From the NCBI GenBank assembly GCA_000002445.1, contig CH464491.1, positions 2,912,001 through 2,976,000 of the forward strand: a stretch of DNA of 64,000 nucleotides, written 5' to 3'. Each line of letters starts with the position of its first letter. Within the stretch, counting starts at the first letter, position 1. Positions 4-61,327 of the stretch are shown in pieces. This DNA is from Trypanosoma brucei. Lineage: Eukaryota. Under the pieces are notes generated by a model, which saw only the letters and a program-made list of their open reading frames with translations, made no database searches and was not told the origin of the DNA. The translations under genes and the position numbers were made by a program.

Positions 4-1605
4 GTGAAGCCACTTTCTGGTGATCATTTGCGGGGGAAAACAGAGGTGCGAAGCGATTGCTGGCCTTGTGGCTGCAAGAGAACGTTTGTGTTGAGTCCTG
101 TTGACGGTGAATACGGATGCTCCGCGTTGCCGAAGGAGGATGCATCGAAGACTATTTCAAAGGCCAGCGAGAACGTTAAGGAGCAAGCTACCACTGGCGC
201 ACAAATACCAGTACAACCCGCAGCAACACCATTTAAGAGTGTATTTGATACACAGAGCAGTGGAGATGCGAAACCACCTGCAGCAACACCATTTAAGAGT
301 GTGTTTGGTACACAGAGCAGTGGAGATGCGAAACCACCTGCAGCAACACCATTTAAGAGTGTGTTTGGTACACAGAGCAGTGGAGATGCGAAACCACCTG
401 CAGCAACACCATTTAAGAGTGTATTTGATACACAGAGCAGTGGAGATGCGAAACCACCTGCAGCAACACCATTTAAGAGTGTATTTGGTACACAGAGCAG
501 TGGAGATGCGAAACCACCTGCAGCAACACCATTTAAGAGTGTATTTGATACACAGAGCAGTGGAGATGCGAAACCACCTGCAGCAACACCATTTAAGAGT
601 GTGTTTGGTACACAGAGCAGTGGAGATGCGAAACCACCTGCAGCAACACCATTTAAGAGTGTGTTTGGTACACAGAGCAGTGGAGATGCGAAACCACCTG
701 CAGCAACACCATTTAAGAGTGTATTTGGTACACAGAGCAGTGGAGATGCGAAACCACCTGCAGCAACACCATTTAAGAGTGTATTTGATACACAGAGCAG
801 TGGAGATGCGAAACCACCTGCAGCAACACCATTTAAGAGTGTATTTGATACACAGAGCAGTGGAGATGCGAAACCACCTGCAGCAACGCCATTTAAGAGT
901 GTGTTTGGTACACAGAGCAGTGGAGATGCGAAACCACCTGCAGCAACACCATTTAAGAGTGTGTTTGGTACACAGAGCAGTGGAGATGCGAAACCACCCG
1001 CAGCAACACCATTTAAGAGTGTGTTTGGTACACAGAGCAGTGGAGATGCGAAACCACCCGCAGCAACACCATTTAAGAGTGTATTTGGTACACAGAGCAG
1101 TGGAGATGCGAAACCACCCGCAGCAACACCATTTAAGAGTGTATTTGGTACACAGAGCAGTGGAGATGCGAATTGTCGAGGGGGTGTTGTTTCCATTTGT
1201 TTAGATGGTGAAAGTTCTGTGACTAATTCTGCTTCTTCCAGTTGTCGCTCCACAGTTCAGGCTAATATTTTACATGATAGTGTTGGTGGGGGAGTTGTTT
1301 GTGTGGCTGATGATTTGAGTGGATACCAGAGCAATTCTCTTGATGAGGCTCTGAACGTTACGGGCCTCTCTCCCCTTTTTTCTGCTTTTGAGAGGATGAT
1401 GAATGACGCGAAGGAAAAGGTGTTGTCAGCCTTGAAGGAGGAGTTGAATCAAATGGTTTCCTGTGTTGGTGGCCGTGATTGCTGTAAGTGCGGAAGGGCA
1501 ATCCAAAGTGGTAGGGAAGTAAAGGAGAATTATAGGGGTAGAAATAAGTCCGGTGATAAAATAATGTGGGCTCATTTGGAGAATGCTTTCACTAAACCCT
1601 ATTGA
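4..1605 (+). CDS. FG-repeat protein, 3' part of a gene that starts upstream of the window (nucleoporin-like); 16 x 20-aa 'PAATPFKSVF(G/D)TQSSGDAKP' repeats followed by a unique Cys-containing tail
   Basis: The frame is open from the window edge (the track 'M' is a GTG, not a real start). There are 16 near-identical 60-nt tandem units encoding an xFG-type peptide (SVFG). It is co-oriented with the downstream genes. Stop codon at 1603-1605. Confidence 0.6.
   Translation: MKPLSGDHLRGKTEVRSDCWPCGCKRTFVLSPVDGEYGCSALPKEDASKTISKASENVKEQATTGAQIPVQPAATPFKSVFDTQSSGDAKPPAATPFKSVFGTQSSGDAKPPAATPFKSVFGTQSSGDAKPPAATPFKSVFDTQSSGDAKPPAATPFKSVFGTQSSGDAKPPAATPFKSVFDTQSSGDAKPPAATPFKSVFGTQSSGDAKPPAATPFKSVFGTQSSGDAKPPAATPFKSVFGTQSSGDAKPPAATPFKSVFDTQSSGDAKPPAATPFKSVFDTQSSGDAKPPAATPFKSVFGTQSSGDAKPPAATPFKSVFGTQSSGDAKPPAATPFKSVFGTQSSGDAKPPAATPFKSVFGTQSSGDAKPPAATPFKSVFGTQSSGDANCRGGVVSICLDGESSVTNSASSSCRSTVQANILHDSVGGGVVCVADDLSGYQSNSLDEALNVTGLSPLFSAFERMMNDAKEKVLSALKEELNQMVSCVGGRDCCKCGRAIQSGREVKENYRGRNKSGDKIMWAHLENAFTKPY
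215..1172 (+). repeat. Tandem array of ~16 x 60-nt coding repeats, with two unit variants: gtatttgata (D) and gtgtttggta (G)
   Basis: Direct reading: the unit 'gcagcaacaccatttaagagtgtRtttgRtacacagagcagtggagatgcgaaaccacct' repeats with only 2-3 variable positions. The unit order is D,G,G,D,G,D,G,G,G,D,D,G,G,G,G,G. Confidence 0.9.
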
Positions 1606-1757
1606 ATTTATTGAAGTGTTACTTTGATGCTAATCACCTTCTGTTGCAAGCGCTGGTGATATAAATTGTTAGTGGGTTTGTTGCGTGTTGACCTTTCTGC
1701 TCCTTCCAAATAATCACTTACTCTACCTGCAGTTCGTGTAACAGATAAAAGGTGTAG

Positions 1758-4700
1758 ATGTCCCTGGACCCCCGTTCCTGTGACGCCATTTGTGAAGAAC
1801 TTCATGCAGAATCGTGCATCTGTGACGGAGCTGGCATTCTCAATTTATGTCGACAGGTAAAAGAACTTCGAGTTGGAATTCGCCGTCTGCTTACTGAAGA
1901 CATACCGACTCTTGGAGACATCATCACAGAATTTCAAGAGCCACACCTGAGGGAGTTTAGGGACTTCCACCGTGGTGCCAGAAGAGATAATGTTGTCAGA
2001 ACTCCAACCGATATAGTTTTTGCCACAACATCACTCCTGCGTTGTTGCAACGAACTGAGTTCCAATGTTACGAGAGGATTCAACCGCCTAGCCAATAAGG
2101 AAACTGTTAAACTTAATACCCATGCAATCGGTTACGCACCTATATTTTCCAGAGAGAAATATAGCAGTTATCCACCCGCAACTGTGGAGACAGAGAAAAA
2201 CGAAAACAGAACAAAAGATAAGAAATTAAACAGTAATCATTGCGCAGCGCCACAGGTAAAAGCGGGTGGCGAGAAAGAGGGAAAAGCTAACCCGCAAGCA
2301 AGACACGAAACAAGTAGATCACTGGTGTCACAAAAAGAAATTTTGACATCTCGGCTAACTACTGTAGACAAGTATCCTGCATTTGGTCAAGCAATTACTG
2401 AAGATAAGCCTCTCGCATTTGGTCAAGGTGCGACTGCAGATAAGCCTCCCGCATTTGGTCAAGGAGTGACTGCAGATAAGCCTCCCGCATTTGGTCAAGG
2501 TGCGGCTGCAGGCACAACTCCCGCATTTGGTCAAGGAGTGACTGCAGGCACAACTCCCGCATTTGGTCAAGGAGTGACTGCAGATAAGCCTCCCGCATTT
2601 GGTCAAGGTGCGGCTGCAGATAAGCCTCCCGCATTTGGTCAAGGAGTGAATGCAGATAAGCCTCCCGCATTTGGTCAAGGAGTGAATGCAGATAAGCCTC
2701 CCGCATTTGGTCAAGGAGTGACTGCAGATAAGCCTCCCGCATTTGGTCAAGGAGTGACTGCAGATAAGCCTCCCGCATTTGGTCAAGGTGCGGCTGCAGA
2801 TAAGCCTCTCGCATTTGGTCAAGGTGCGACTGCAGATAAGCCTCCCGCATTTGGTCAAGGAGTGACTGCAGATAAGCCTCCCGCATTTGGTCAAGGTGCG
2901 GCTGCAGATAAGCCTCCCGCATTTGGTCAAGGAGTGACTGCAGGCACAACTCCCGCATTTGGTCAAGGAGTGACTGCAGATAAGCCTCCCGCATTTGGTC
3001 AAGGAGTGAATGCAGATAAGCCTCCCGCATTTGGTCAAGGAGTGAATGCAGGCACAACTCCCGCATTTGGTCAAGGAGTGACTGCAGGCACAACTCCCGC
3101 ATTTGGTCAAGGAGTGACTGCAGGCACAACTCCCGCATTTGGTCAAGGTGCGGCTGCAGATAAGCCTCCCGCATTTGGTCAAGGAGTGAATGCAGATAAG
3201 CCTCCCGCATTTGGTCAAGGAGTGACTGCAGGCACAACTCCCGCATTTGGTCAAGGAGTGAATGCAGATAAGCCTCCCGCATTTGGTCAAGGAGTGACTG
3301 CAGGCACAACTCCCGCATTTGGTCAAGGAGCGGCTGCAGATAAGACTCCCGCATTTGGTCAAGGAGTGACTGCAGATAAACCTCCCGCATTTGGTCAAGG
3401 AGTGACTGCAGGCACAACTCCCGCATTTGGTCAAGGAGTGACTGCAGGCACAACTCCCGCATTTGGTCAAGGAGTGACTGCAGATAAGCCTCCCGCATTT
3501 GGTCAAGGAGTGAATGCAGATAAGCCTCCCGCATTTGGTCAAGGAGTGACTGCAGGCACAACTCCCGCATTTGGTCAAGGAGCGGCTGCAGGCACAACTC
3601 CCGCATTTGGTCAAGGAGTGAATGCAGATAAGCCTCCCGCATTTGGTCAAGGAGTGACTGCAGATAAGCCTCCTGCATTTGGTCAAGGTGCGGCTGCAGG
3701 CACAACTCCCGCATTTGGTCAAGGAGTGAATGCAGATAAGCCTCCCGCATTTGGTCAAGGAGCGGCTGCAGGCACAACTCCCGCATTTGGTCAAGGAGTG
3801 AATGCAGATAAGCCTCCCGCATTTGGTCAAGGAGCGGCTGCAGATAAGCCTCCTGCATTTGGTCAAGGTGCGGCTGCAGATAAGCCTCCTGCATTTGGTC
3901 AAGGTGCGGCTGCAGGCACAACTCCCGCATTTGGTCAAGGAGTGAATGCAGATAAGCCTCCTGCATTTGGTCAAGGTGCGGCTGCAGGCACAACTCCCGC
4001 ATTTGGTCAAGGAGTGACTGCAGATAAGACTCCCGCATTTGGTCAAGGTGTGGCTGCAGATAAGCCTCCCGCATTTGGTCAAGGTGTGGCTGCAGATAAG
4101 CCTCCCGCATTTGGTCAAGGTGCGGCTGCGAATAAAGCTTCTGTATTTGGTCAAGGAGTGACTGCAGGCACAACTCCCGCATTTGGTCAAGGAGTGGCTG
4201 CAGATAAGCCTCCCGCATTTGGTCAAGGTGTGGCTGCAGATAAGCCTCCCGCATTTGGTCAAGGTGCGGCTGCGAATAAAGCTTCAGCATTTGGTCAAGG
4301 AGTGACTGCAGGCACAACTCCCGCATTTGGTCAAGGAGTGGCTGCAGATAAGCCTCCCGTATTTGGTCAAGGTGTGGCTGCAGATAAGCCTCCCGCATTT
4401 GGTCAAGGTGCGGCTGCGAATAAAGCTTCTGTATTTGGTCAAGGAGTGACTGCAGGCACAACTCCCGCATTTGGTCAAGGAGTGGCTGCAGATAAGCCTC
4501 CCGTATTTGGTCAAGGAGTGACTGCAGATAAGCCTCCCGCATTTGGTCAAGGAGTGACTGCAGATAAGCCTCCCGCATTTGGTCAAGGAGTGGCTGCAGA
4601 TAAGCCTCCCGTATTTGGTCAAGGAGTGGCTGCAGATAAGCCTCCCGCATTTGGTCAAGGTGCGGCTGCGAATAAAGCTTCAGCATTTGGTCAAGGAGTG

Positions 4701-6152
4701 ACTGCAGGCACAACTCCCGCATTTGGTCAAGGAGTGGCTGCAGATAAGCCTCCCGCATTTGGTCAAGGTGCGGCTGCAGGCACAACTCCCGCATTTGGTC
4801 AAGGAGTGACTGCAGGCACAACTCCCGCATTTGGTCAAGGAGTGACTGCAGGCACAACTCCCGCATTTGGTCAAGGTGCGGCTGCGAATAAAGCTTCAGT
4901 ATTTGGTCAAGGAGTGACTGCAGGCACAACTCCCGCATTTGGTCAAGGAGTAACTGCAGGCACAACTCCCGCATTTGGTCAAGGTGCGACTGCAGGCACA
5001 ACTCCCGCATTTGGTCAAGGAGTGACTGCAGGCACAACTCCCGCATTTGGTCAAGGAGTAACTGCAGGCACAACTCCCGCATTTGGTCAAGGTGCTGCTG
5101 CGAATAAAGCTTCAGTATTTGGTCAAGGTGTGGCTGCAGATAAGCCTCCCGCATTTGGTCAAGGTGTGGCTGCAGATAAGCCTCCCGCATTTGGTCAAGG
5201 TGCTGCTGCGAATAAAGCTTCAGTATTTGGTCAAGGTGCTGCTGCGAATAAAGCTTCAGTATTTGGTCAAGGAGTGGCTGCAGATAAGCCTCCCGCATTT
5301 GGTCAAGGTGCTGCTGCGAATAAAGCTTCAGTATTTGGTCAAGGTGCGGCTGCAGGCACAACTCCCGCATTTGGTCAAGGTGCGGCTGCAGATAAGCCTC
5401 CTGCATTTGGTCAAGGTGCGGCTGCAGGCACAACTCCCGCATTTGGTCAAGGAGTGACTGCAGGCACAACTCCCGCATTTGGTCAAGGAGCTGCTGCGAA
5501 TAAAGCTTCAGTATTTGGTCAAGGTGCGGCTGCAGGCACAACTCCCGCATTTGGTCAAGGTGCGGCTGCAGGCACAACTCCCGCATTTGGTCAAGGTGCG
5601 GCTGCAGGCACAACGCCCGCATTTGGTCAAGGTGCGGCTGCAGGCACAACTCCCGCATTTGGTCAAGGTGCGGCTGCAGGCACAACTCCCGCATTTGGTC
5701 AAGGAGTGACTGCAGGCACAACTCCCGCATTTGGTCAAGGTGCGGCTGCAGGCACAACTCCCGCATTTGGTCAAGGTGCGGCTGCGAATAAAGCTTCAGT
5801 ATTTGGTCAAGGAGTGACTGCAGGCACAACTCCCGCATTTGGTCAAGGTGCTGGTGGGTGTGTATCCAACTCTGTCTTTGGGACGACTCCGGCAAGCGGT
5901 GGATGTGAATTGGGTACAATATGTGGATTCGGCTCTGACCCGAGTGGAGTGAAGTCGTTGCGTGTTAACCTTGGTGCTAATTGCGGTGTAGGGACTCCTT
6001 CTGTTTTTGGTGTGCCCGGTCATGTTTCGAGTCCGCAAGTTGCTCCCTTTGGTTCCGCTGCTACGTCTCATGTTTTTCAGTCTTCTTCTTTTTCTAGTAT
6101 TGCCGGCAATTATAAGGCCACACCTGATTTTAAAAGTGTCTTTTCGCAGTAG
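1758..6152 (+). CDS. FG-repeat nucleoporin-like protein (about 97 x 12-aa 'PAFGQG[VA][TAN]A[DGN][KT][PTAS]' repeats); possible TbNup149-family orthologue
   Basis: ATG at 1758. The ~200-aa unique N-terminus is followed by ~3.5 kb of 36-nt in-frame tandem repeats, each carrying an FG dipeptide. The short unique C-terminus also contains FG/GFG. It sits immediately upstream of GNA1, matching my recollection of T. brucei chromosome 11 synteny, but this was not verified by search. Confidence 0.7.
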   Translation: MSLDPRSCDAICEELHAESCICDGAGILNLCRQVKELRVGIRRLLTEDIPTLGDIITEFQEPHLREFRDFHRGARRDNVVRTPTDIVFATTSLLRCCNELSSNVTRGFNRLANKETVKLNTHAIGYAPIFSREKYSSYPPATVETEKNENRTKDKKLNSNHCAAPQVKAGGEKEGKANPQARHETSRSLVSQKEILTSRLTTVDKYPAFGQAITEDKPLAFGQGATADKPPAFGQGVTADKPPAFGQGAAAGTTPAFGQGVTAGTTPAFGQGVTADKPPAFGQGAAADKPPAFGQGVNADKPPAFGQGVNADKPPAFGQGVTADKPPAFGQGVTADKPPAFGQGAAADKPLAFGQGATADKPPAFGQGVTADKPPAFGQGAAADKPPAFGQGVTAGTTPAFGQGVTADKPPAFGQGVNADKPPAFGQGVNAGTTPAFGQGVTAGTTPAFGQGVTAGTTPAFGQGAAADKPPAFGQGVNADKPPAFGQGVTAGTTPAFGQGVNADKPPAFGQGVTAGTTPAFGQGAAADKTPAFGQGVTADKPPAFGQGVTAGTTPAFGQGVTAGTTPAFGQGVTADKPPAFGQGVNADKPPAFGQGVTAGTTPAFGQGAAAGTTPAFGQGVNADKPPAFGQGVTADKPPAFGQGAAAGTTPAFGQGVNADKPPAFGQGAAAGTTPAFGQGVNADKPPAFGQGAAADKPPAFGQGAAADKPPAFGQGAAAGTTPAFGQGVNADKPPAFGQGAAAGTTPAFGQGVTADKTPAFGQGVAADKPPAFGQGVAADKPPAFGQGAAANKASVFGQGVTAGTTPAFGQGVAADKPPAFGQGVAADKPPAFGQGAAANKASAFGQGVTAGTTPAFGQGVAADKPPVFGQGVAADKPPAFGQGAAANKASVFGQGVTAGTTPAFGQGVAADKPPVFGQGVTADKPPAFGQGVTADKPPAFGQGVAADKPPVFGQGVAADKPPAFGQGAAANKASAFGQGVTAGTTPAFGQGVAADKPPAFGQGAAAGTTPAFGQGVTAGTTPAFGQGVTAGTTPAFGQGAAANKASVFGQGVTAGTTPAFGQGVTAGTTPAFGQGATAGTTPAFGQGVTAGTTPAFGQGVTAGTTPAFGQGAAANKASVFGQGVAADKPPAFGQGVAADKPPAFGQGAAANKASVFGQGAAANKASVFGQGVAADKPPAFGQGAAANKASVFGQGAAAGTTPAFGQGAAADKPPAFGQGAAAGTTPAFGQGVTAGTTPAFGQGAAANKASVFGQGAAAGTTPAFGQGAAAGTTPAFGQGAAAGTTPAFGQGAAAGTTPAFGQGAAAGTTPAFGQGVTAGTTPAFGQGAAAGTTPAFGQGAAANKASVFGQGVTAGTTPAFGQGAGGCVSNSVFGTTPASGGCELGTICGFGSDPSGVKSLRVNLGANCGVGTPSVFGVPGHVSSPQVAPFGSAATSHVFQSSSFSSIAGNYKATPDFKSVFSQ
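2368..5853 (+). repeat. Tandem array of ~96-97 x 36-nt coding repeats (FG-repeat module)
   Basis: Strict 36-nt periodicity, 'cc(t/c)gcatttggtcaagg(a/t)g(t/c)g(a/g)(c/a)tgcag(ataag|gcaca)(c/a)c(t/a)c'. A few variant cassettes are used combinatorially: VTADKP, AAADKP, VNADKP, VAADKP, VTAGTT, AAAGTT and AAANKAS. Confidence 0.95.
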
Positions 6153-6335
6153 AAGTTTATGGTTATGGGAGGTAACTAAAAAATCATGTGAATGAGGTGC
6201 TTAAATATTTTTGTTATTATACTTAAATTTCGTTAGATGATGTTCTTTGTGAAGGCGCTTTCGTTTGTTGTTTTGATGTGTAGTTCTTAGAGGTTATTCT
6301 TGCTAGCATCAGGACGAAAGTTGTGAAGCTATACA

Positions 6336-6779
6336 ATGACCGATATAGTGGACCTGGAACTTAGGGTGTTGGAGGAGAGTGACTTGTCCAGTCACTTGGA
6401 GCTGTTGGGGCATCTGACTGAGGCACCACCGTTGAGCGGGGTCGAACTCGCGAACATCGCGGACATGCGGAGGAGAGCTGGAATTGTAACTAAAGTGTTC
6501 TGTCACCAACCAACTGGAGGGATTGTGGGGTCAGCATCTCTAATGATTCAACCGAAATTCACTCGTGGCGGTAGGGCTGTAGGACACATTGAAGATGTCG
6601 TTGTAGACCCCTCGTACAGAGGGGCTGGACTTGGCAAAGCACTTATCATGGACCTTTGCGAAATATCTAGGTCGAAAGGTTGCTACAAAGTGATACTCGA
6701 CAGTTCTGAAAAGTCGCTTCCGTTCTACGAAAAGTTGGGGTTTCGAGCACATGAGAGACAAATGAGGCTGGATTTGTAG
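6336..6779 (+). CDS. GNA1: Glucosamine-6-phosphate N-acetyltransferase (GNAT family, GNA1)
   Basis: 147 aa. GNAT motif A 'GHIEDVVVDPSYRGAGLGKALI' and the C-terminal 'YEKLGF' are typical of GNA1 enzymes. Clean ATG start and stop. Confidence 0.8.
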   Translation: MTDIVDLELRVLEESDLSSHLELLGHLTEAPPLSGVELANIADMRRRAGIVTKVFCHQPTGGIVGSASLMIQPKFTRGGRAVGHIEDVVVDPSYRGAGLGKALIMDLCEISRSKGCYKVILDSSEKSLPFYEKLGFRAHERQMRLDL

Positions 6780-7020
6780 TTTTTTTTGTCTGCATTTTCG
6801 ATTTAACATGAGTATTCACTTATCTACTTTCAGCAAAGTGGTGGGGGTTACTGATGAAACGTAATGGGGAGAGACTGAGGTTATAGAGCGGCAAGTCAAC
6901 ATTGCATCCTGCCTTCGCATGTGTGCTCGTTCTATTATATCTGTGCTTGTGCGCTGTTTCTATTCTTCTGCTTTCTCACTCTTTACCATCAGTGTGTTTA
7001 CGTAGGATATCAACATTTTC

Positions 7021-8127
7021 ATGCACCGGGGGAGCCAACTTGACGTAGATCGGTACAGTGTTGTAAAGCACCTTGGAAGTGGGGGATTTGGTGATGCATT
7101 CCTTGTAAAGGATGCTAACGATGGCATGGAGTATGTGCTGAAGTGTTCAAAAACTGTTGGCAGTAATGACACACTGTTGTCCGAGGCACAGAATCTCTTG
7201 CTCACAACATGTGACCATGTTGTGCACTGTTTTGGTGTTTGGTTGGAACCTATGGGTAACAGGTGCTGTATGCTACTTGAATACTGTGATGGGGGGGACT
7301 TGGAGGATTACCTAAGTTACTCCTTTCCCCTGACAGAATCGGAGCTTGTTTCAATATTTGCGCAGCTGCTATTGGGTCTGGATCACATCCATCTTAAGCA
7401 TCTTATACATAGGGATATCAAATTGCAGAACTTGATGCTACACCGTTCTACGGGAGTTGTGAAGATTGGTGATTTCGGCATGAGCAAAGCTCTTCGCTTT
7501 ACGGACGAGGTCTCTTCCACAAGGCTTGGCACCCCTCTTTACACTTCACCAGAGGTTCTAAAAGGCCTTGGATATACAAGAAAAACAGATGTATGGAGCA
7601 TGGGTGTGGCGTTCTACCGTTTGATGACCAACAGACTTCCGTTCCCAGCTTCCAATGTGGAGGAGATGTATGAAAGCTATAGGACCACCCGGCCCGTGCA
7701 CCCTTGCCGAGTGCACAACGAATATTCCGAACCGCTTGGTGATTTGGTAATGAAGATGCTGACTAAGAGTAGAAGGAAACGGCCGAATGCGCGTGAGCTG
7801 CTTGCTCTTCCACTGTTTACGGAAACACTTAGTGCGCGTCCATGGCATCCGCCCCATCTTCGCGGATCAAACTACTTGTTTTCGTGTCGTCCAATGACCA
7901 ACATCAATATCCGGAGTCTTCCTTCCTTGGCTGCTGAGCGGGTTGGCGAGGTTTCGTATGGTGATCAGGTTCTTGTAAGTGAAGAAGAGGTGAGCAGTGA
8001 GGGTATGATGTGGTACAGGGTTCTTTATCCCCTGGAAGGATACTGCATTACAACTACAGATGGTCATCAGTTATTTCAGCGGGTTAGTGACCCTGCGCGT
8101 TTTCCCCCGATTTCGTCCCTAGAGTGA
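7021..8127 (+). CDS. Serine/threonine protein kinase, NEK-like
   Basis: Gly-loop 'LGSGGFGDAF', the VLK lysine, catalytic loop 'HRDIKLQNLML', 'IGDFGMS' and 'GTPLYTSPEV' (NEK-type activation segment), plus a ~90-aa C-terminal extension. Confidence 0.8.
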   Translation: MHRGSQLDVDRYSVVKHLGSGGFGDAFLVKDANDGMEYVLKCSKTVGSNDTLLSEAQNLLLTTCDHVVHCFGVWLEPMGNRCCMLLEYCDGGDLEDYLSYSFPLTESELVSIFAQLLLGLDHIHLKHLIHRDIKLQNLMLHRSTGVVKIGDFGMSKALRFTDEVSSTRLGTPLYTSPEVLKGLGYTRKTDVWSMGVAFYRLMTNRLPFPASNVEEMYESYRTTRPVHPCRVHNEYSEPLGDLVMKMLTKSRRKRPNARELLALPLFTETLSARPWHPPHLRGSNYLFSCRPMTNINIRSLPSLAAERVGEVSYGDQVLVSEEEVSSEGMMWYRVLYPLEGYCITTTDGHQLFQRVSDPARFPPISSLE

Positions 8128-8652
8128 TATTTATCCTCTTGCTTCATTTTCTGGTGATATAGTGATGGTACATTCAATGTATTATCCCTCATGTTATTTT
8201 TTAAAACTTCCTTTCCTCAACTATTTGTTTTACATCTCTAAGTAAATTGTTGGTTTATTTTGTTCTTCTTAGCTTTCATTGAACTTGTTATTATTTTATC
8301 CTGGAGAGTTGACACAGTTCTGTTGGTAACAATATTTCGTTGTAGTGTCTCTTCACTAGCGGCTGCGACATGCTTTCTTCTCCCCACCTGTTCTGTGGTC
8401 AGGGAAGAGACTGTATGAATCGGGTCGAGAAGACATTCGGCGGAAATAGTTTTTTTTTCTTTTTAAAGCTCTGCTTTTTATCGCAGGCGCAGTGCTTCCG
8501 ATCTTCTTGTTAGAGAAAGGATCCGGGCTCGACAGTCGCGTTGCATCACCACCAGCGATGTCCTTCTTATCTCTGCTCGTTAATCCTTTCTACCCCTCAC
8601 CTTAACAAATACATGGCTCTCTTTTTTTCCTTTTAGGCGCAAAGTTTTGGAA

Positions 8653-9249
8653 ATGCGTTGTGTGAGACGATCTGTTTTGGGCTCACGCGGCTTGAAGCGG
8701 CCCATGTTTAATTACACCCGTATTTTTAGCATGGGGATCACACAGCACACATTTACTGGTGCTCTGCTGGAGGACTTAAGGGCCGGGGGGTGCTGCGGGG
8801 ATCAAACAGAAGACAACCCTGGGAGCTCCCTTCGACATGGGGAGCTCGACCACTTTGAAAGTCCGGAAGCCGAGGCTGCGCACGTTGAGAAGGTGAATAC
8901 CGTAGTTGATGATTTATTTTCCCGGATGCCCTTGCCCGAAGATCCAATGGGGGCTGCGTTGGCCCCAACCAAAGAAGAAATGGAGGAAAAGGCCGAATGG
9001 GATGTGTTAAAGGAGGTTGTGCGTGAGCGATACCAACGCAAGATTGCACTCAAAGAGGCTGAGAGAGTCAGGATTGATAAGGCGATGCAGCATTACCGAG
9101 TGGATAAGGATATTGAGGGGGGAGTCTCAGGTGTAACTGGTGCCACCGGCGATTCTGAAAAAATTCGAAAGAAAATTGAGCGGATGAAACAGGAAATCGT
9201 TGAACTTGAGCGGCGCCTTGAAGCAGCGAACCACGATGATAATTTGTAG
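8653..9249 (+). CDS. Hypothetical protein with a basic presequence-like N-terminus and a C-terminal coiled coil
   Basis: ORF of about 198 aa from the first ATG (the track start at 8647 is TTG). N-terminus 'MRCVRRSVLGSRGLKRPMF' is Arg-rich and looks like a mitochondrial targeting presequence. The C-terminus is charged heptad-like, 'KKIERMKQEIVELERRLEA'. Confidence 0.4.
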   Translation: MRCVRRSVLGSRGLKRPMFNYTRIFSMGITQHTFTGALLEDLRAGGCCGDQTEDNPGSSLRHGELDHFESPEAEAAHVEKVNTVVDDLFSRMPLPEDPMGAALAPTKEEMEEKAEWDVLKEVVRERYQRKIALKEAERVRIDKAMQHYRVDKDIEGGVSGVTGATGDSEKIRKKIERMKQEIVELERRLEAANHDDNL

Positions 9250-9272
9250 TGTCTGCGGAGGTGTGAGGCTTC

Positions 9273-9288
9273 TTTTTTTTTTTTTTTT
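9273..9288 (+). promoter_or_regulatory. T16 homopolymer / polypyrimidine tract in an intergenic region
   Basis: 16 consecutive T residues just 3' of the 8653-9249 ORF's stop codon. A second T-run lies at 9483-9494. Confidence 0.3.
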
Positions 9289-9845
9289 GCCAGATAGTTG
9301 TTCTTTGCCTGTATTCACTGGTGCGTACCCTCATTTCTTATAGTGACCCCCCTGTGGTATGGCCGTTGTGCTGACGGTACCGCAAAACGAATTTGAAACG
9401 GCGTCACATAAAAGATACCGGGGACTGGGGTGTTGTTGAGGTCCGGTGTTGGCTTAAGAGGGATCCGACCAATGGCGTCCTCTTTTTTTTTTTTCTTTAT
9501 TCATGGAGGAGATTACGTTCTGGTGTGCCGGTTGACGGTGTTTTGATGTGGTGCTGTAGGTGGCGCACAGCGCTGCGTAGTTAGCGTTCGGTGGGTTGTA
9601 AGTAGTCCATGGATAAACTGTTGCGGTGTAGCATTGGGAAATGGAGGGCCTAAGCAGATGGCACCCTCTAGGACTCATTAGTCCGTGGCCTTAACCGCTC
9701 TTCTTGCTCTCGTAAACTCTTTGGCTGTTTTTCTTTCTGCATGTTTACCCCGGATAATCTCAACGGGGAAATCAGTGCCTGGCGTACCGTCCCTTTACCG
9801 TATTTGTTTGTAGGTATTTAACCTTGTGGTTGTTTCTGTAGGACG

Positions 9846-25592: not shown

Positions 25593-26450
25593 CCTGTGAA
25601 CCCACTAATTTTTCCCCTCCACGAAAGAAAGCTAGAACAAAAAAAAGTAGCCTCGGTTTTGGAGTCAAGCATGTGTAAGCAAATGTACAAATTGGCATGT
25701 CTCGTCACTTGTGTGAGTTGCTTGGTGAAGGCCGTCGCGTGGAACGTGGAGGCATATGTATTGCGGGGCCTGATCTGGATATCCTTGCCATTGCAATTCT
25801 TTTCCACAGCCAAAGCGTGAGAGCGTGCTTCCATCACTGTCTCTGTATCCCTTTTTTTTTTCCTGAATCTCTTCCTTGCACGTAGAAGCGGTGGCCCTCT
25901 CGGCTTTTGCATGTATATATGAGTCTTATGTGCGTCGGAATTTATGTGTGCGTATCCGTTTGTATGTTTGATTACAATCAGCCTTGATGTTTTTTTTTTT
26001 AAATTATGTTAGGCGTGTTTGTTTGACTTTTCCTCCACTAGTTTTCTTTTTTTTTTGCTTGTGTGCCTCTTTGACAATGTGCAACAACGCTGTTGTGGCC
26101 ACTCGCACACTTCATATGCAATCTGTTGGTTCTACAGGGTTTGTTTTCTTCGTGCCGTTTTCCAAGTTTCAACCGACTGTCACCACTCCTCCCGACGACG
26201 CCGTATTCTTTTTTGTCCCCTTGTGCCTCTTACGGCACATATTACCCATATACCTGTGCCAAGTAAATTTGCTGTTCCCGTTGGGCAAACAGCTCAAACA
26301 AGACTGAAAAAAGGGCCGGAGGCGCTGGATTAGTCACAAAGGTTCAAGGGAGCTTCGAAAGAGAGAGAGAGAGCGTAAGGACAAAGGAAGATTGAAAGCT
26401 TTAAAAAACACAATAGAAGTGAAGTGGCCGAAGGGGCGATAAACTCGGCT

Positions 26451-29400
26451 ATGGGCACCGGTGCAGACGACGGGAAGGCGGGGCGGCATCAGCCAATGCC
26501 GCAAGTACAGAAGAAAGAAATCGTACACCGCAATCCAAACCATGTTGCACGGGATGTGTTTGATTTGCGTGGGACCAGTAACCCACTAGCTATGCAATTG
26601 TACAGCGACGGCATATCAAGTGGACCACTACTTGGCATTCCCAATCGTCTTGTGCGTGATCTTCAACCGCTTTCCACCAACGCACGTAAACGGTGTCACA
26701 GTGATGCCGCCTTCTCCCACCACAGTGGCGATGGCGCAGGCCATGACGGACGGACGACGAAGCACGGCACACTGCAGCTATACCGCCCCCCGGTATGTGG
26801 TGAAGAAGAGCTGAAGGAGCATTTCGCCGCCGTGGCGCTTGAGGGGAAAGAGGTGAGGGTACCGACGAAGCGGCACCGCTCTCGACCTGGGCGGCTTGAT
26901 CCACTAAAGGGTACTTTGCAATCATCAACCTCGGGTTCGCCATCATACGGCGAAAATGAGGGTAATGAAGGCAGAGAGGGGCAAAAAAATATAGGAGATG
27001 CAAATAATTCCGCGCCAAATGAGAACGTGGGGCCGATTCCACGGTTTACGAAGTTGCGATCAAACGCACCGAATGAGTTCACATATCTTGTGATGCGCCC
27101 TCGTGGGATACGCAGTCCCTACAATCCCTACGATTTGCAGGTAGTGTCGCATAGGGATGTTGACCCGTCTCATTATTACACAGTTTCCGCAGCCGGTGTG
27201 ACTAAATTCTCTGGCCATGAGGCTGAGTTTATTGAGTTACACACATGGGAACGGGATTGCCGTGTTTTCAATCAACTGAGGGAACTAGACGTTTTCCGTG
27301 AATACAAGAAGTGGAAGAGTTTTCTGTTGTGGCGTGGCCTTGTGCGCAACCACGCTATGTCGAACTGCAAAACTTTTCTCACGAAGAACCTTTTTCACGT
27401 CCATCCTCAACTGTCTGCTGCCCTACAAACTGTGCAGCGTATCTGTCTTAATTTTGTCAACAGCAGCAGAATCCACCCTCCCGCGACAGAGACGCGCACG
27501 TTGGAGGCTCTGTGCGCAACACTTGCAGCGCACCTCAACTTTCAGCGCAACCGACTTGACAAAATGATTAAAAACATTCGCGACACCGTTGAGCGCGCCG
27601 CGAAGGCGGCGATGTTGGCAGCACAAATAGAGCGGGAGAGTATTAGTGCCCTCCACGCAGAGGATGAAAAGAAAAAGAAGAAACTCATTGACGTGCGGGA
27701 ATTGGGAACACAACAGAAGCCTACTTACATTGAAATGTCACAGAAGAAGGCTGTCTGTCAGCGCATCACTGCGTTTATTCGTCTTTGTGATTACATAATC
27801 GTGAACTGTCTAACAAAGCTTGCCGCAACAGCGGTTGAGGATGTAGATCGCGACTTTCAGTACCCGAGGCCAGACAAACAGCAAGATTCGGTAACATCAC
27901 CTCTTAACAAGAATTCCTGGAGGGGAAAGCGGCAGGAAGGACACAAGGCTGAGGCACCAAAGCCGACAGGACCATTTACCGGCCCTATTCTTAGCCTCAA
28001 TGTTGTTTACAGGGAGGACAGCCAATCCATTGAGATTACACCGTCACTTGCCCACATAACTGAATGTGTGGAGGACGTGGTGGAAGATTACATAAAAACA
28101 CTGAGTGCTGTACCCCGGCTCTTGACGATGGATGCGTTCAAGGTATTCACTGAAAACGCCGCTCATGACTCCCAAAAGGAGGTCCTCTCTGGCCCTGCCG
28201 TTGGTGAAATGATCGTCTCAGAGGAGGCATATAAACAGCACATGACATCCGTTCGTTATGGAATCACAAGGGCGTTCGGCGACGTGGAGGAATATGTGAA
28301 TAGCTTCCAGTGCTTCAGAGATATGTACGTGGAGAATAGCAGTCTGGACGCTGATAGCATCCAGAAACGTACCCAGAACCTGGAGTTCTTCCGTGAGCGC
28401 CTGGCTCTCTACAAGTCGCAGAGCGACGCCATATCAACGAAGATACCAAGCTCGAAGGACGTGGCACTGTTTACAGTCTACACCGAGGAGTTACGGGACT
28501 TCTTTACACCGAGCCCCGTCGTTTGCCTGGAGACATTTCACCGTCTTCTTCCTGTCATTGCGCACCAACAGAACGAATTGCTGCTTGCGGATCTGCAAAG
28601 TTGCAATACCTATCTGGCAGCCCAGCCAAAGACAGTGGAGCATTACGTGGAATATCTTGCATACAACAAGGCACTTGAAGCCCGTTTTGATACTCTGGCA
28701 GCGTCTTACGACTTCGTCCGCGAGTTTTTCACTTTGCTGCAGGATGAAAAGGTTGAAATTGAGGAGGACCTTGAGGAGACATACCGAAGCGGGACTCGTC
28801 CGCAGTTTGAGAAGTTGCGTACGCAGATGCAAATCGTAGAGGACGCAAAAGATTCTCAACAGCGGTACTTCATTCGGAATGTGGATGAGCAGCTTGATGA
28901 GCTTCGACGGTCCATTGAGGACGTGTATAATCGAGCTGGGCAGCCTGTTATTGCCGATGCAAACGCGGATATGGATGAGGTGATTCATTTTATTACCGAT
29001 TTGCAGGCTGAGGCCGAAAGAATTGCCGCAAGGGAGAAAAAGCTTCGGCAATACCAAATTGCAATTGGGGCCGAAGAGACAGTCGTAGAGACAATGTCAG
29101 ATATGTTGAATGATGTGAATATCAAGGCGCGGTTATGGGTCGGGATGCGAGAGTGGGATGAGTTCGTGGAATCGTACGGGCCAATACCGTTCGATCAGCT
29201 CAATGTGCAGGAGGTGCAGGAAACTGTTCAAAAGTATGTGATGACTGTCAAGCAGGTGTCTACAAAGTTACCTGGAAATAGTGCGGTAAACAAATTAAAA
29301 TCAAAAGTGGAAGCATGGCGCATTCTTTTACCCATTTTACAGGCCCTGACGAACCCAAAGATGAAGTTGGAGCATATCACAAAAGTATCCAATGCCGTAG

Positions 29401-32400
29401 GACCGTTGAAGGACGATAATGGTGTCTCAAAGACCATTGCTGATTGGAACAATCAGTTCACCCTTGGCATGCTCCACTCGAATGAAGTCGTTAAGTTCAA
29501 GGATGAGATCGTCGCGATTAGCGCGGCTGCAACTGAGGAGGACAAACTGCAGCAACAGATCGACAAGGTCAATGCTCTCTGGAATGGCGGGGGCCCGAAG
29601 CCACCTGTAGAATTTCAGTTTCACAATCATAAAGAGCTTAAGGACGTCTACGTTCTTGTCGGTTCTTCGGTTGAGGATGTGATGGCTCTGCTGGATGACT
29701 CAGTTATTGCGATGTCAAGTATAGGCTCGAGTAGGTGCTGTCAGGGTGTTCTCCGCGCACAGGTGGACCGTTGGGAAAATCGACTTCGGTACATGCAGGA
29801 GACGTTGGACCGTTGGGTGGAGCTGCAGCGGCACTGGATCTACCTAGAAAACATTTTTTCCTCCGCAGAAATTCGTTCGCAGTGGAAGGACGATGCCAAA
29901 CGTTTCGAAAAAGTTGACCGCTTTTACCGCGACCTAATGCGGAAGGCGCATGATATGCCCACCGCCTATCGCGGGCTCCTCATCAATGCCCCAGTGGAGA
30001 CCGGTGAGCAACAGAATACGAAAACGCTCAAGTACGATCTCGAAGGGAATATTAAGGAATTAGAGAAAGTTTTGGCAAGTCTAGAGCGAAAGCTGGAAGA
30101 AAAACGCTGTGCATTCCCTCGGTTCTACTTCCTAAGCAACGACGATATGCTCGACATTTTTGCTAAGGTCAAGTCGCCTGAGTTGATCATGCCACATATG
30201 CTGAAGATGTTTGACGGTATTAAAACATTATCCTTCACGGAGACGAATGATATCACTCATCTTGTGTCGATGGAGGGGGAGCGTGTTGAGTTAGTGAACA
30301 AGAGCATCAAGGCGCGTGGGCCAGTGGAGGTGTGGATCGATATGTTGGAGCGGGAGATGTTCTCTACACTTCGCAAGCATGCTAACACCTGTCTCACTGA
30401 CTACGAGCAGCGTGGTGACCGCGAGTCATGGATGTTTCAGCATGCAGTGCAGCTTGTTCTGATCATGGAACAATTGCTGTGGACGCGTGGGGTGGAAGAG
30501 GCACTCACAAGTGAAAACCCTGCGGAGGCGATGAGTCGTTTCAAGGAAGCAAACTACAAAGCTTTGGAGAGCCTTGCCGGTCTCACAGCGAGGAAATTGT
30601 CGAAGGTGCAGCGTATTCTTCTTTCCACACTTATTACGATTGATGTTCATGGACGCGACTTGGTGGACGAGATGTATGAAAGCAATGTGCTAGACGTCAA
30701 AGAATTTGGGTGGACGAAGCAACTCCGCGTGTATTGGGAGCAAGATACGGACGGGTATGGTAATTGCTTTATAAGGCAGAACAACTCACGTTTTGTTTAC
30801 GGGTACGAATACCTGGGAGCTCAGGGGCGTCTAGTCATTACCCCTCTTACGGATCGCATTTACATGACTGTAACAGGTGCACTCAAGCTGCAGTTGGGAG
30901 CAGCTCCTGCGGGCCCCGCTGGCACAGGGAAAACAGAGACTGTGAAGGACTTAGCAAAGAATTTGGCACGCCAGTGTATCGTGTACAACTGCTCCGATGG
31001 TGTAACGTACAAGATGATGGAAAAATTCTTCTCAGGCCTCATTCAGACGGGAGCATGGACGTGCCTTGATGAGTTTAATCGAATCAATATAGAGGTGCTA
31101 TCCGTGATTGCCTCACAGCTATTTGAAATCAAGCTTGCGCTGCAGAATGGACTGGAGACATTCACGTTCCAGGGTACACCGAATGTTCGTGTGCGCCCCA
31201 CCTATGGTGCTTTTGTTACCATGAACCCCGGTTATGCAGGACGTACTGAGCTTCCTGATAACCTGAAGATACTCTTCCGTCCAGTGGCCGTCATGACACC
31301 TGACTTCCGCATGATCGCAGAAGTGATCCTGTATTCGGAAGGCTTCAAAAATGCGAAGGATCTTTCTCTTAAAATTACGCAACTGTACAAGCTTAGTTCG
31401 GAGCAACTGTCTCCCCAAGACCACTACGATTTCGGTATGCGTGCGCTCAAGTCCATTCTTGTAATGGCCGGTGACCTGAAGAGGTCGCAGCCGGATGTGG
31501 AGGAGGATCTTACTTTGATTGTTGCCTGTAATGATTCAAACGTCCCGAAGTTTGTCGCGGAAGATCTCCCGCTGTTTCGTGGTATTATGCAAGATCTTTT
31601 CCCTGGGGTCCACTTCCCCGAACGGCAGTATGAGGAATTGCTACCTGCCATGCAGAAAAGTATTGATGGGAATAAGTTGGTGGCACTCGATACGTGGGTA
31701 ACAAAAGGCATTCAGTTCTATGAAACGTTGATTGTTCGCCATGGTGTTATGTTGGTTGGTGTCACGGGGACAGGGAAGACAGAGATACGCACGTGTATAT
31801 CAGAGGCACTTACGTCAATGTCCGAGGCGGAATCAAGCAACCCCATGGCACGACCAGTGCATCAGTTTATCATGAATCCCAAATCTGTGATGATGCATGA
31901 GCTGTACGGTCTTTTAGACGTAAATACTAACGAGTGGCGAGACGGCGTTCTGTCAGTGATTGCGAAGAACTGTGTCCGTGAGTCTGAGGTTAACAAAGAT
32001 CACCGGTGGATTGTTTTTGACGGACCTGTCGATACACTTTGGGTGGAGTCATTAAACTCCGTTTTGGATGACTCCAAGCTTCTTTGTCTTGACAGTGGTG
32101 AGCGCATTAAACTTCCTGATACCATTCATATGTTGTTCGAGGTTGCCGATCTGGCAGTGGCGTCTCCCGCTACCGTGTCAAGGTGCGGTATGGTTTACCT
32201 TGACACCACAGATCTTCATTGGAGTGCCGTGGTGCGTCACTGGTCCGAATCCAAACTGGCTGAGGCTGGTGGGGAACCACAGTGCCGTGAGTTCATAGTT
32301 TCCCTGTTCGATGCCCATGTGCAGAAAGGGCTTGATTGGCTCGCAATGCAGAAGGTTCTGATTTCGGGTGGCATGGTGAATGTGGTGCAGTCAATGTGCG

Positions 32401-61022: not shown

Positions 61023-61300
61023 TTCCCAGGTGTATTTCGGACCGGTGCTGCAGTCGTCTCATTGTCTACGGTGATGGTCCGCCGCCACATTTTCTCTTCG
61101 TCTCTGTAGCATTTAGGAACCCTCGTTACGGGAAAGATGCGTGACACATTGATGCTACTACTATTATTAATACTCTACTACTATTATTATTATTTTTATT
61201 TTAGTTCCCCACCACCGTCATTATTATTACCATTATTATTATCAATATTACCATTATTGTTTTTAATGTAATCATATATGTATATATTCTTTAGTTGTTT

Positions 61301-61327
61301 TATTTTTTTATTCTTTATTTTTTTTAG
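61301..61327 (+). promoter_or_regulatory. Polypyrimidine tract with an AG dinucleotide immediately upstream of the GCP-like gene
   Basis: 'ttagttgttttatttttttattctttattttttttag' ends 1 nt before ATG 61329. Confidence 0.35.

What the first reader, a model, noticed from the sequence alone, without database searches (positions are those of the whole stretch)
2368..5853. A ~3.5-kb array of ~96 near-identical 36-nt coding repeats encoding 12-aa FG units
The gene at 1758-6152 is about 80% a single tandem array in which each 12-codon unit carries one FG ('PAFGQG'). The units are identical even at synonymous sites and are built from a handful of interchangeable 6-codon cassettes (VTADKP, AAADKP, VNADKP, VAADKP, VTAGTT, AAAGTT, AAANKAS). 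Cassette usage shifts along the array: DKPP-types dominate the 5' half, while GTT and NKAS types dominate the 3' third. This pattern points to ongoing unequal-crossover homogenisation rather than selection at the amino-acid level. FG-repeat regions in nucleoporins form the permeability barrier, so copy number and unit type here could tune nuclear transport. Arrays of this kind are also collapsed or mis-sized in most assemblies, so the true length in the organism is uncertain.
Basis: partly seen in the sequence, partly recalled or inferred. Interest (0 to 1): 0.6.

Follow-up and report, generated by a model that had tools for sequence, protein, structure and literature searches.

The report
TbNup140 FG-repeat nucleoporin gene array
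The repeat array is real, but it is the already characterised Trypanosoma brucei nuclear-pore protein TbNup140 (not TbNup149, which lies just upstream), whose T. cruzi counterpart is the classic Chagas diagnostic antigen CA-2/B13.

Summary
ORF 1758-6152 (+; 1464 aa, 140.4 kDa, 101 FG) contains 97 head-to-tail 36-nt units (2355-5846) with no indel or stop. "Near-identical" is overstated: there are 29 DNA unit types and 17 peptide unit types, with 84% mean pairwise identity.

The flanking genes are exact matches to T. b. brucei TREU927 chromosome 11 proteins. Mass, FG type ((A/V)FGQ), FG span (209-1432) and FG count equal the published TbNup140. This is a GFP-localised FG-nucleoporin of the NUP76 complex on the cytoplasmic face of the pore, and it co-purifies with Mex67.

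The homogenisation idea is supported:
- FGQ is TTT GGT CAA in 95/95 units, against TTC GGA CAA in T. congolense and TTT GGA CAG in T. cruzi.
- Different unit types within T. brucei are closer to each other than the same type is across species.
- T. b. gambiense has 80 units and shares few types with the window, although its flanks are 99.3-99.8% identical.

"Rather than amino-acid selection" is wrong. The 12-aa period and the DKP..FGQ motif are conserved across Trypanosoma, including the T. cruzi CA-2/B13 repeat AAAGDKPSPFGQ.

Six other fetched contigs or scaffolds break in the array. In this window, however, every 150-mer of the array is unique. The finding is ordinary and already known.

The parts
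1758..6152 (+). Complete CDS of TbNup140 (Tb11.01.2885): 1464 aa, 140.36 kDa, pI 9.0, 101 FG dipeptides
   Evidence: ORF. They match DeGrasse 2009 Table I (140.2 kDa, (A/V)FGQ 209-1432; PMC2742445) and Obado 2016 (101 FGs; PMC4758718). The neighbouring genes are exact matches to TREU927 EAN80063.1 and EAN80064.1.
1758..2354 (+). Unique N-terminal region (aa 1-199). Residues 1-140 or so are the conserved helical domain that defines the Nup140/CA-2 orthologue group and is the presumed NUP76-binding anchor.
   Evidence: phmmer hits to T. congolense, T. grayi, T. theileri and T. rangeli at E 8e-28 to 5e-20. Profile hit to T. cruzi CA-2 at E 6.6e-57. The alignment has 28 invariant columns. The AF2 model is all-helical but has pLDDT 49.7. 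It differs from gambiense at 1 of 597 nt. The anchoring role is inferred from the NUP76-dependent pore localisation reported in PMC11825100.
2355..5846 (+). Array of 97 in-frame 36-nt units (12 aa each, consensus G-[VA]-[TAN]-A-[DKPP/GTTP/NKAS]-[AV]-F-G-Q), with 29 DNA unit types and 17 peptide unit types
   Evidence: There are no stops in the coding frame and 47 and 58 stops in the other two + frames.
4047..4478 (+). Local higher-order repeat: three copies of a 4-unit (144-nt) block VAADKPP-VAADKPP-AAANKAS-VTAGTTP (units 48-59). It contains one copy (4073-4215) of the longest exact internal repeat; the other copy (4361-4503) starts here and runs 25 nt past this block (143 nt, lag 8 units).
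   Evidence: Excess of identical peptide units at lag 3 and lag 4 (p<=0.0005 against shuffles) and the unit listing. At the DNA level no exact duplication exceeds 3 units, which is chance level.
5847..6152 (+). Unique C-terminal tail (101 aa) with four degenerate FG motifs (VFGT, GFGS, VFGV, PFGS)
   Evidence: It differs from gambiense at 1 of 306 nt. It has no hydrophobic GPI-like or TM-like segment (maximum KD-19 score 0.87).
1606..1757 (+). Unusually short (152-nt) intergenic region between Nup149 and Nup140, with a pyrimidine-rich tract at 1692-1729 and an AG at 1731-1732 (candidate trans-splice acceptor)
   Evidence: Sequence. The 'abnormally small intergenic region' and the two separate messages are reported in PMC2742445. 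The splice-site assignment is my inference.
4..1605 (+). 3' part of the neighbouring gene TbNup149 (cut by the window start), with a CxxC zinc-finger remnant and a 60-nt / 20-aa SVFG repeat array at 216-1172
   Evidence: The gambiense and GCA_003543875.1 full-length proteins show the repeated zinc-finger plus VFGT domains. This matches TbNup149 as described in PMC2742445 and PMC4758718.

Best explanation
The ORF is TbNup140, a kinetoplastid-specific FG-nucleoporin.

A short helical N-terminal domain (about 140 aa) anchors it to NUP76 on the cytoplasmic face of the nuclear pore. The 97 x 12-aa array forms a disordered filament of about 1160 residues with one Phe-Gly every 12 residues. These are about 100 weak binding sites for transport receptors, above all the mRNA exporter Mex67-Mtr2.

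At the DNA level the array evolves in concert. Unequal sister-chromatid or homologue exchange and short-tract gene conversion, in 36-nt register, spread variants and change copy number quickly. Purifying selection keeps the frame, the FGQ core, the 12-aa spacing and the A/G/T/P-rich spacer with its DKP motif.

What is shown here:
- the anatomy of the array;
- identity with the published TbNup140;
- the concerted-evolution signature;
- cross-species conservation of the motif;
- orthology to the T. cruzi CA-2/B13/Ag2 antigen.

Taken from the literature: pore localisation, cytoplasmic side, NUP76 dependence and Mex67 co-purification.

Inferred: the N-terminal domain is the NUP76 contact, the FG units are the Mex67 sites, and the recombination mechanism.
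For: Identity:
- The GNA1 and kinase genes downstream are exact matches to T. b. brucei TREU927 proteins.
- The ORF gives 140.36 kDa, 101 FG, first FG at residue 209 and last at 1431-1432. Table I of PMC2742445 gives 140.2 kDa and (A/V)FGQ 209-1432. PMC4758718 gives 101 FGs.
- Adjacency to Nup149 with a tiny intergenic region is as published.

Function (literature):
- GFP puncta at the nuclear rim.
- A NUP76-NUP140-NUP149 complex that co-isolates with Mex67 at high stringency.
- Location exclusively on the cytoplasmic side, with pore localisation lost on NUP76 depletion.

Concerted evolution:
- TTTGGTCAA in 95/95 units of the window and 77/78 in gambiense, against TTCGGACAA, TTTGGACAA and TTTGGTCAG in T. 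congolense and TTTGGACAG in T. cruzi.
- Within T. brucei, D-type and G-type units differ by 6.8 nt on average. The same types differ by 15.4 and 14.0 nt between T. brucei and T. congolense.
- TREU927-like against gambiense: flanks are 596/597 nt, 305/306 nt and 99.3% over 3 kb, but the arrays have 97 against 80 units. Nine unit types are shared out of 29 and 40. Only 13 of 73 aligned units are identical.

Selection:
- No frame-breaking indel or stop in 97 units.
- The 12-aa period and the DKP..FGQ motif are kept in four other Trypanosoma species whose N-terminal domains are 33-39% identical to the window's.
- Both DK/DNK-type and GTT-type units exist in T. congolense.
Against: - No Pfam family, including the nucleoporin FG families, matches the protein. 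Class membership therefore rests on composition and on published experiments, not on profile homology.
- The exact 1464-aa sequence is not in the protein collection, and a word-indexed search with the N-terminus found nothing. I could not align the window to the deposited TREU927 protein residue by residue.
- The N-terminal model has low confidence (pLDDT 49.7), so the anchor role is unproven.
- The gambiense array comes from an older assembly and could itself be mis-sized, which would inflate the apparent turnover.
- No exact multi-unit duplication longer than 3 units exists, so large recent unequal crossovers are not directly visible. The mosaic fits short-tract conversion as well as it fits crossover.
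Confidence: 0.93

Rival explanations
1. The array as written is an assembly artefact (collapsed, expanded or scrambled), so the unit count, unit order and cassette gradient are not those of the organism.
For: Every other fetched scaffold or contig except gambiense fails here. GCA_003543875.1 has a 100-N gap that removes most of Nup140. The T. equiperdum contig, two Logan contigs and the T. congolense and T. cruzi contigs all end in the array. The gambiense assembly has 80 units against 97.
Against: The longest exact repeat inside the array is 143 nt, and 100% of 150-mers are unique. Reads of 200 nt or more can place every unit. The frame is intact over 3.5 kb. The ORF reproduces the published mass, FG span and FG count. 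The same 5'-to-3' gradient is seen independently in gambiense.
Confidence: 0.1
2. The protein is a parasite surface antigen, as its orthologues are annotated ('surface antigen 2 (CA-2)', B13 'trypomastigote surface membrane'), and the repeats serve immune decoy or evasion rather than nuclear transport.
For: Orthologues in T. grayi, T. theileri, T. rangeli and T. cruzi carry this name. The T. cruzi repeat is the immunodominant epitope in Chagas sera (PMC9851536). The Leishmania orthologue Lci9 is also a serological antigen (PMC5619722).
Against: There is no signal peptide, TM segment or GPI-like hydrophobic tail (maximum KD-19 score 0.87). In T. brucei the protein was localised to nuclear pores by tagging in two independent studies and sits in the NUP76 complex. 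Recent Chagas literature already lists the gene as a nucleoporin (PMC11444392, PMC12987611). Abundant repetitive intracellular proteins are commonly immunodominant after parasite lysis (general knowledge).
Confidence: 0.04
3. The uniformity of the units reflects only strong codon-level or amino-acid selection, or one very recent amplification burst, with no ongoing recombinational homogenisation.
For: The amino-acid motif is conserved across species. No long exact multi-unit duplicates are present.
Against: Selection on protein sequence does not explain why the F, G and Q third positions are invariant in 95/95 units while other species use other synonymous codons. Arrays of two subspecies with more than 99% identical flanks differ in count, unit types and order. 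Similarity between units decreases with distance along the array, from 4.9 to 6.4 mismatches. The four-gamete combinations of N-half and C-half cassettes are all present.
Confidence: 0.1
4. The long antisense ORF (2395-5919, minus strand, 1174 aa) is the real gene.
For: It is listed as an open frame.
Against: It exists only inside the repeat, because one antisense frame of the unit happens to lack stops. All 16 ORFs of 250 aa or more listed for 8000-64000 are on the + strand. The + frame continues into unique, cross-species-conserved N- and C-termini. The + strand product was found by proteomics.
Confidence: 0.01

Closest known systems
TbNup140 (Tb11.01.2885), T. brucei FG-nucleoporin of the NUP76 complex (DeGrasse 2009; Obado 2016; PLoS Biol 2025 e3003024)
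   Same: Everything that could be compared is the same: organism and locus, adjacency to Nup149, 140 kDa, (A/V)FGQ repeat type, FG span 209-1432 and 101 FGs.
   Different: Nothing detectable. The papers do not describe the DNA-level unit types, the 5'-to-3' gradient or the comparison with gambiense.
T. cruzi Ag2 / TCR39 / CA-2 / B13 / PEP-2 antigen (TcCLB.508831.140), the 12-aa repeat antigen used in Chagas serology
   Same: It has an orthologous N-terminal domain (39% identity, profile E 6.6e-57) followed directly by 12-aa xDKPxPFGQ units. It shares 6-7 of 12 residues with the T. brucei DK- and NK-type units. An upstream gene ends with a Nup149-like C-terminus, but that match is weak (E 0.009).
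   Different: The T. cruzi unit is AAAGDKPSPFGQ (PFGQ rather than AFGQ, with no GTT-type units in the fragment seen). FGQ is coded TTT GGA CAG. It was historically annotated as a surface antigen, and its pore localisation in T. cruzi was not found in the papers read.
Yeast Nup159 / human NUP214 (cytoplasmic FG-Nups bound to Nup82/NUP88)
   Same: It works alike. It is a cytoplasmic-face FG-Nup whose pore localisation depends on the Nup82/88 orthologue NUP76, and it sits in the mRNA-export platform that engages Mex67.
   Different: It has no N-terminal beta-propeller and no Dbp5-binding site. Its short helical domain is N-terminal rather than a C-terminal coiled coil. AlphaFold comparison in PMC11825100 found no structural homology. 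My model is all-helical. It is not a member.
   Same: It is an FG-Nup in the same complex and is the adjacent gene. In Leishmania major the two are reported as one polypeptide, LmjF28.3030.
   Different: Nup149 has few FGs (18), of VFGT type in 20-aa units, and is built of large repeated zinc-finger domains. In this window it is the ORF at 4-1605, not the ORF at 1758-6152.

Membership tests
TbNup140 / CA-2 orthologue group (Trypanosoma) | Conserved helical N-terminal domain of about 140 aa | tested here: met
   phmmer E 8e-28 to 5e-20 to four Trypanosoma species. Profile E 6.6e-57 to T. cruzi CA-2. 28 invariant columns.
TbNup140 / CA-2 orthologue group (Trypanosoma) | The N-terminal domain is followed by a long array of xFGQ units, 12 aa in most species | tested here: met
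   97 units here. 12-aa units in T. congolense, T. grayi, T. rangeli and T. cruzi; 16 aa in T. theileri.
TbNup140 / CA-2 orthologue group (Trypanosoma) | Published descriptors of TbNup140: 140.2 kDa, (A/V)FGQ at 209-1432, 101 FGs | tested here: met
   140.36 kDa, FG at 209 to 1431-1432, 101 FGs, against PMC2742445 and PMC4758718.
TbNup140 / CA-2 orthologue group (Trypanosoma) | Synteny: immediately downstream of Nup149 | tested here: met
   Window, gambiense L001 and T. congolense L011. Only weak in T. cruzi L012 (E 0.009).
FG-nucleoporin (functional class) | Many FG motifs separated by short, low-complexity, hydrophilic spacers in a region without predicted fold | tested here: met
   97+4 FGs. 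The array is made of A, G, P, T, F, Q, V, K, D and N. No Pfam domain matches.
FG-nucleoporin (functional class) | Localisation at nuclear pore complexes | not testable with these tools
   Literature only: GFP tagging (PMC2742445) and expansion microscopy with TurboID (PMC11825100).
FG-nucleoporin (functional class) | Interaction with nuclear transport receptors | not testable with these tools
   Literature only: it co-isolates with Mex67-Mtr2 at high stringency (PMC4758718). Direct binding by the FG units has not been shown.
Pfam nucleoporin FG-repeat families | Profile match above threshold | tested here: not met
   0 families at E<=1 for the full protein, the N-terminus and the C-terminus.
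Nup159/NUP214 | N-terminal beta-propeller that binds Dbp5/DDX19 | tested here: not met
   The N-terminus is predicted all-helical, at low confidence. PMC11825100 reports no homology and no Dbp5 in trypanosomes.
TbNup149 | Large repeated zinc-finger domains and sparse VFGT-type FGs in 20-aa units | tested here: not met
   This ORF has neither. The features are in the upstream ORF 4-1605 and in its full-length gambiense copy.
Surface antigen (as the orthologues are named) | Signal peptide, TM segment or GPI-anchor signal | tested here: not met
   A crude scan only: the maximum Kyte-Doolittle 19-residue score is 0.87, and both termini are hydrophilic.

The most novel reading that the evidence does not exclude
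The ordered change of unit type along the filament may be a selected functional zonation of the FG domain, not a by-product of local recombination. Zwitterionic DKPP units lie next to the NUP76-anchored N-terminus. Uncharged, Thr-rich GTTP units and +1 NKAS units lie toward the free C-terminal end. This would be comparable to the 'extended stalk plus cohesive tip' organisation proposed for yeast FG-Nups, and copy number (97 vs 80 units) would set the reach of the Mex67 docking filament. The gradient is present in both T. b. brucei and T. b. gambiense despite heavy unit turnover, and both unit classes also exist in T. congolense.
Probability: 0.2. Interest if true: 0.45.

Novelty: already known. 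Interest (0 to 1): 0.2.

Why it matters
It matters little as a discovery. TbNup140 has been identified, localised and placed in the NUP76/Mex67 mRNA-export platform. The analysis has three practical uses:

1. It corrects the gene assignment from Nup149 to Nup140.
2. It shows that this array can be resolved by reads of 150-200 nt or more, while six other fetched contigs or scaffolds truncate it. Orthologue annotations are therefore fragments: the proteins of 225-395 aa all end in the array.
3. It ties the trypanosome nuclear-pore literature to the Chagas serology literature. The immunodominant 'surface antigen' CA-2/B13/Ag2 is the orthologue of a cytoplasmic-face FG-nucleoporin. The species-specific, rapidly homogenised repeat explains why its epitope varies between lineages.

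Tried and rejected
- Exact look-up of the 1464-aa protein: not in the collection.
- Word-indexed homology search with aa 1-207: 89 candidates, none significant. The full HMMER scan then found the orthologues.
- Fetching TREU927 DNA through GNA1 and through the kinase: the TREU927 record is not indexed. The window could therefore not be compared with the deposited chromosome or with a long-read Lister 427 assembly.
- Pfam on the full protein and both termini: no hit.
- AlphaFold2 on aa 1-150 with a 5-sequence alignment: pLDDT 49.7. That is too poor, so I ran no fold search.
- Search for exact multi-unit duplications as direct evidence of recent unequal crossover: the maximum is 3 units, equal to the shuffle expectation.
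- Antisense 1174-aa ORF: rejected as a repeat artefact.
- Surface-antigen reading: rejected (no targeting signals, published pore localisation).
Full report
**1. The observation**

The + strand ORF at 1758-6152 encodes 1464 aa. Tandem Repeats Finder reports one array at 2361-5848 with period 36, 96.9 copies, 85% matches and 0% indels.

Read in codon register, there are 97 units of exactly 12 codons at 2355-5846. Each unit ends in F-G-Q, and all 96 FGQ-to-FGQ spacings are 12 aa. The array is 79% of the ORF.

There are 17 peptide unit types and 29 DNA unit types. Seven types account for about 88 of the 97 units:
- VTAGTT (22)
- AAAGTT (15)
- VAADKP (13)
- VTADKP (11)
- AAANKAS (11)
- VNADKP (10)
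- AAADKP (6-7)

The positional shift is real. DK-type units make up 32 of 48 in the 5' half and 5 of 33 in the 3' third. NKAS units appear only from unit 50 onward. The permutation p is below 5e-5.

- Units are on average 84% identical, not near-identical.
- Synonymous variants exist in six of the twelve codons.

The last three codons (F, G, Q), and also codons 3, 5 and 9, show no synonymous variation at all: TTT GGT CAA occurs in 95/95 units.

**2. What it is**

The two downstream genes, glucosamine-6-phosphate N-acetyltransferase (6336-6779) and a protein kinase (7021-8127), are exact matches to T. brucei brucei TREU927 proteins EAN80063.1 and EAN80064.1.

The ORF product weighs 140.36 kDa and has 101 FG dipeptides. 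The first is at residue 209 and the last at residues 1431-1432.

DeGrasse et al. 2009 (PMC2742445, Table I) list Tb11.01.2885 = TbNup140 at 140.2 kDa with FG type (A/V)FGQ at 209-1432. They list the adjacent Tb11.01.2880 = TbNup149 with VFGT repeats, and note an 'abnormally small intergenic region' between the two. Obado et al. 2016 (PMC4758718) give 101 FGs for TbNup140.

The upstream ORF at 4-1605 carries 20-aa PPAATPFKSVFGTQSSGDAK units (a 60-nt repeat at 216-1172) and a zinc-finger remnant, so it is the 3' end of TbNup149. The intergenic region is 152 nt. It has a pyrimidine-rich tract at 1692-1729 and an AG at 1731-1732, which I infer to be the trans-splice acceptor.

The named candidate, Nup149, is the neighbour, and this ORF is Nup140.

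**3. How it works**

From the literature:
- TbNup140-GFP gives nuclear-rim puncta.
- It forms a complex with NUP76 and NUP149 that co-isolates with the mRNA export receptor Mex67 at high stringency.
- By expansion microscopy and proximity labelling, the complex sits only on the cytoplasmic face.
- NUP140 leaves the pore when NUP76 is degraded, and NUP76 depletion causes nuclear poly(A) accumulation (PMC11825100).

From the sequence:
- The first 140 or so residues are the only conserved, foldable part. They are predicted all-helical, at low confidence (pLDDT 49.7).
- The rest is a disordered A/G/P/T/Q-rich chain with a Phe every 12 residues.

My reading is partly inferred. The N-terminal helices dock on NUP76, and the filament of about 1160 residues offers about 100 weak FG contacts to Mex67-Mtr2 and other receptors at the cytoplasmic exit. 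It works like Nup159/NUP214 but is not a member of that family, because it lacks the beta-propeller and the Dbp5 site. No Pfam family matches the protein.

**4. Evolution of the array**

I retrieved the locus from other genomes through the neighbouring genes.

*T. b. gambiense DAL972 (L001)*
- The 5' unique part of the gene differs at 1 of 597 nt and the 3' unique part at 1 of 306 nt. The next 3 kb are 99.3% identical.
- The array has 80 units, not 97.
- Only 9 DNA unit types are shared, out of 29 and 40.
- Several abundant types are private. GVAADKPP (13 copies) is found only in the window, while GTTADKPP and GxTADTTP are found only in gambiense.
- A unit-level global alignment finds 13 identical units among 73 aligned pairs.

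*Orthologues found by a full HMMER scan with aa 1-207*
- These are from T. congolense, T. grayi, T. theileri and T. rangeli (E 8e-28 to 5e-20). A profile search added T. cruzi (E 6.6e-57).
- FGQ is coded TTT GGT CAA in all T. brucei units. In T. congolense it is mostly TTC GGA CAA, and in T. cruzi it is TTT GGA CAG.
- Within T. brucei, DK-type and GTT-type units differ by 6.8 nt on average. The same types differ by 15.4 and 14.0 nt between T. brucei and T. congolense.

Paralogous units resemble each other more than they resemble their counterparts in another species.

The mosaic pattern points to frequent short exchanges rather than a few large duplications:
- No exact duplicate exceeds 3 units.
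- All N-half by C-half cassette combinations are present.
- Similarity decays slowly with distance along the array, from 4.9 to 6.4 mismatches.
- There is a local 4-unit higher-order repeat at 4047-4478.

'Rather than selection at the amino-acid level' does not hold:
- The 12-aa period and the motif [AG]-D-K-P-x-[AP]-F-G-Q are retained in T. grayi (PAGGDKPAPFGQ), T. rangeli (AATGDKPTPFGQ) and T. cruzi (AAAGDKPSPFGQ). T. congolense has a rearranged form (PAAADNKPAFGQ). The unique N-terminal domains of these orthologues are only 33-39% identical to the window's.
- T. congolense also has GTT-like units (PAATGTTSAFGQ), so both unit classes probably predate the brucei/congolense split.
- The frame is never broken in 97 units.
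- The DK-to-GTT gradient is present in both subspecies despite the turnover.

Homogenisation and purifying selection act together.

**5. Link to a well-known antigen**

The orthologues in T. grayi, T. theileri, T. rangeli and T. cruzi are named 'surface antigen 2 (CA-2)'.

The T. cruzi repeat AAAGDKPSPFGQ is the Ag2/TCR39/CA-2/B13/PEP-2 epitope. It is the most abundant antigen cluster recognised by Chagas sera in a phage-display study (PMC9851536) and a component of several commercial tests (PMC11444392).

That review and a 2026 JCI paper already list the gene as a nucleoporin (TcCLB.508831.140; 'Ag2, a nucleoporin protein'). The link is therefore known at annotation level. However, the trypanosome pore paper I checked for this (PMC11825100) contains no occurrence of 'CA-2', 'B13' or 'surface antigen'. 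The Leishmania infantum orthologue (Lci9) is also a serological antigen, with repeats of 25 and 34 residues (PMC5619722).

The T. brucei protein has no signal peptide, TM segment or GPI-like segment on a simple hydropathy scan. The 'surface' label is therefore best treated as historical.

**6. Assembly question**

- GCA_003543875.1 has a 100-N gap that joins Nup149 repeats to the last three Nup140 units.
- The T. equiperdum contig starts in the last unit.
- Two Logan contigs and the T. congolense and T. cruzi contigs end inside the array.

All database orthologues are consequently fragments of 225-395 aa.

For this window the position is better. The longest exact internal repeat is 143 nt, and every 150-mer of the array is unique. 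Sanger or long reads can therefore order the units unambiguously. The ORF also agrees with the published protein descriptors. I could not fetch the TREU927 record or any long-read T. brucei assembly, so the count of 97 is not independently confirmed.

**7. Verdict**

The feature is real and was accurately described. It is the known gene TbNup140.

The transport-tuning idea remains speculation. Published localisation points to the cytoplasmic mRNA-export platform rather than the central barrier.

- Novelty: already known.
- Interest: low (0.2).
- Least ordinary reading still open: the conserved 5'-to-3' gradient of unit chemistry is a selected zonation of the FG filament (probability about 0.2).

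Noticed in passing
window 216-1172 (within ORF 4-1605, +): The TbNup149 60-nt repeat (15.9 copies, 98% identity) encodes PPAATPFKSVF[G/D]TQSSGDAK. Five of the 16 units read SVFD instead of SVFG (GGT to GAT), so a change that destroys the FG motif has spread to about a third of the units. A very similar T. cruzi peptide (PFKSVFGAPSSTDAKPPAESPFKS, hypothetical protein C4B63_133g26) appears among the Chagas-serum phage-display antigens in PMC9851536 Table 2.
   Followed up: partly
window 1606-1757 and 6153-6335: The intergenic regions on both sides of Nup140 are very short (152 and 183 nt). The upstream one has a pyrimidine-rich tract at 1692-1729 followed by an AG at 1731-1732, about 25 nt before the ATG. 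The Nup149 and Nup140 ORFs are in different frames here, whereas the Leishmania major orthologue is reported as one fused polypeptide (PMC2742445).
   Followed up: partly
window 2395-5919 (-) and 2355-4262 (-): Long antisense ORFs (1174 and 635 aa) lie entirely inside the repeat. They are artefacts of a unit that lacks stops in those frames. Gene callers could mis-annotate them.
   Followed up: yes
L002 (GCA_003543875.1, CM010682.1) 4658-9395: In this assembly Nup149 is called as a 1503-aa protein with four near-identical zinc-finger/VFGT domains. Gambiense (L001) has two, and three are published for TREU927. The large domain repeat of Nup149 is thus also variable in copy number or mis-assembled.
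   Followed up: no
window 59037-61109 (+), repeat 60909-60961: An HSP70 gene (Pfam E 3.7e-260) has a short 12-nt GGTATGCCCGGA (GMPG) tandem repeat near its 3' end. It is followed by a gamma-tubulin complex component gene at 61278-63677.
   Followed up: partly
window 26424-39179 (+): A 4251-aa ORF is the largest in the window. It was not examined. All 16 ORFs of 250 aa or more listed for 8000-64000 are on the + strand, consistent with a single polycistronic transcription unit.
   Followed up: no
P0009 (T. theileri orthologue): The T. theileri orthologue has a 16-aa unit (ATAGAGTEVKPSPFGQ) instead of 12 aa. The period is therefore not absolutely fixed in the genus. Only two units are visible in the truncated record.
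   Followed up: no
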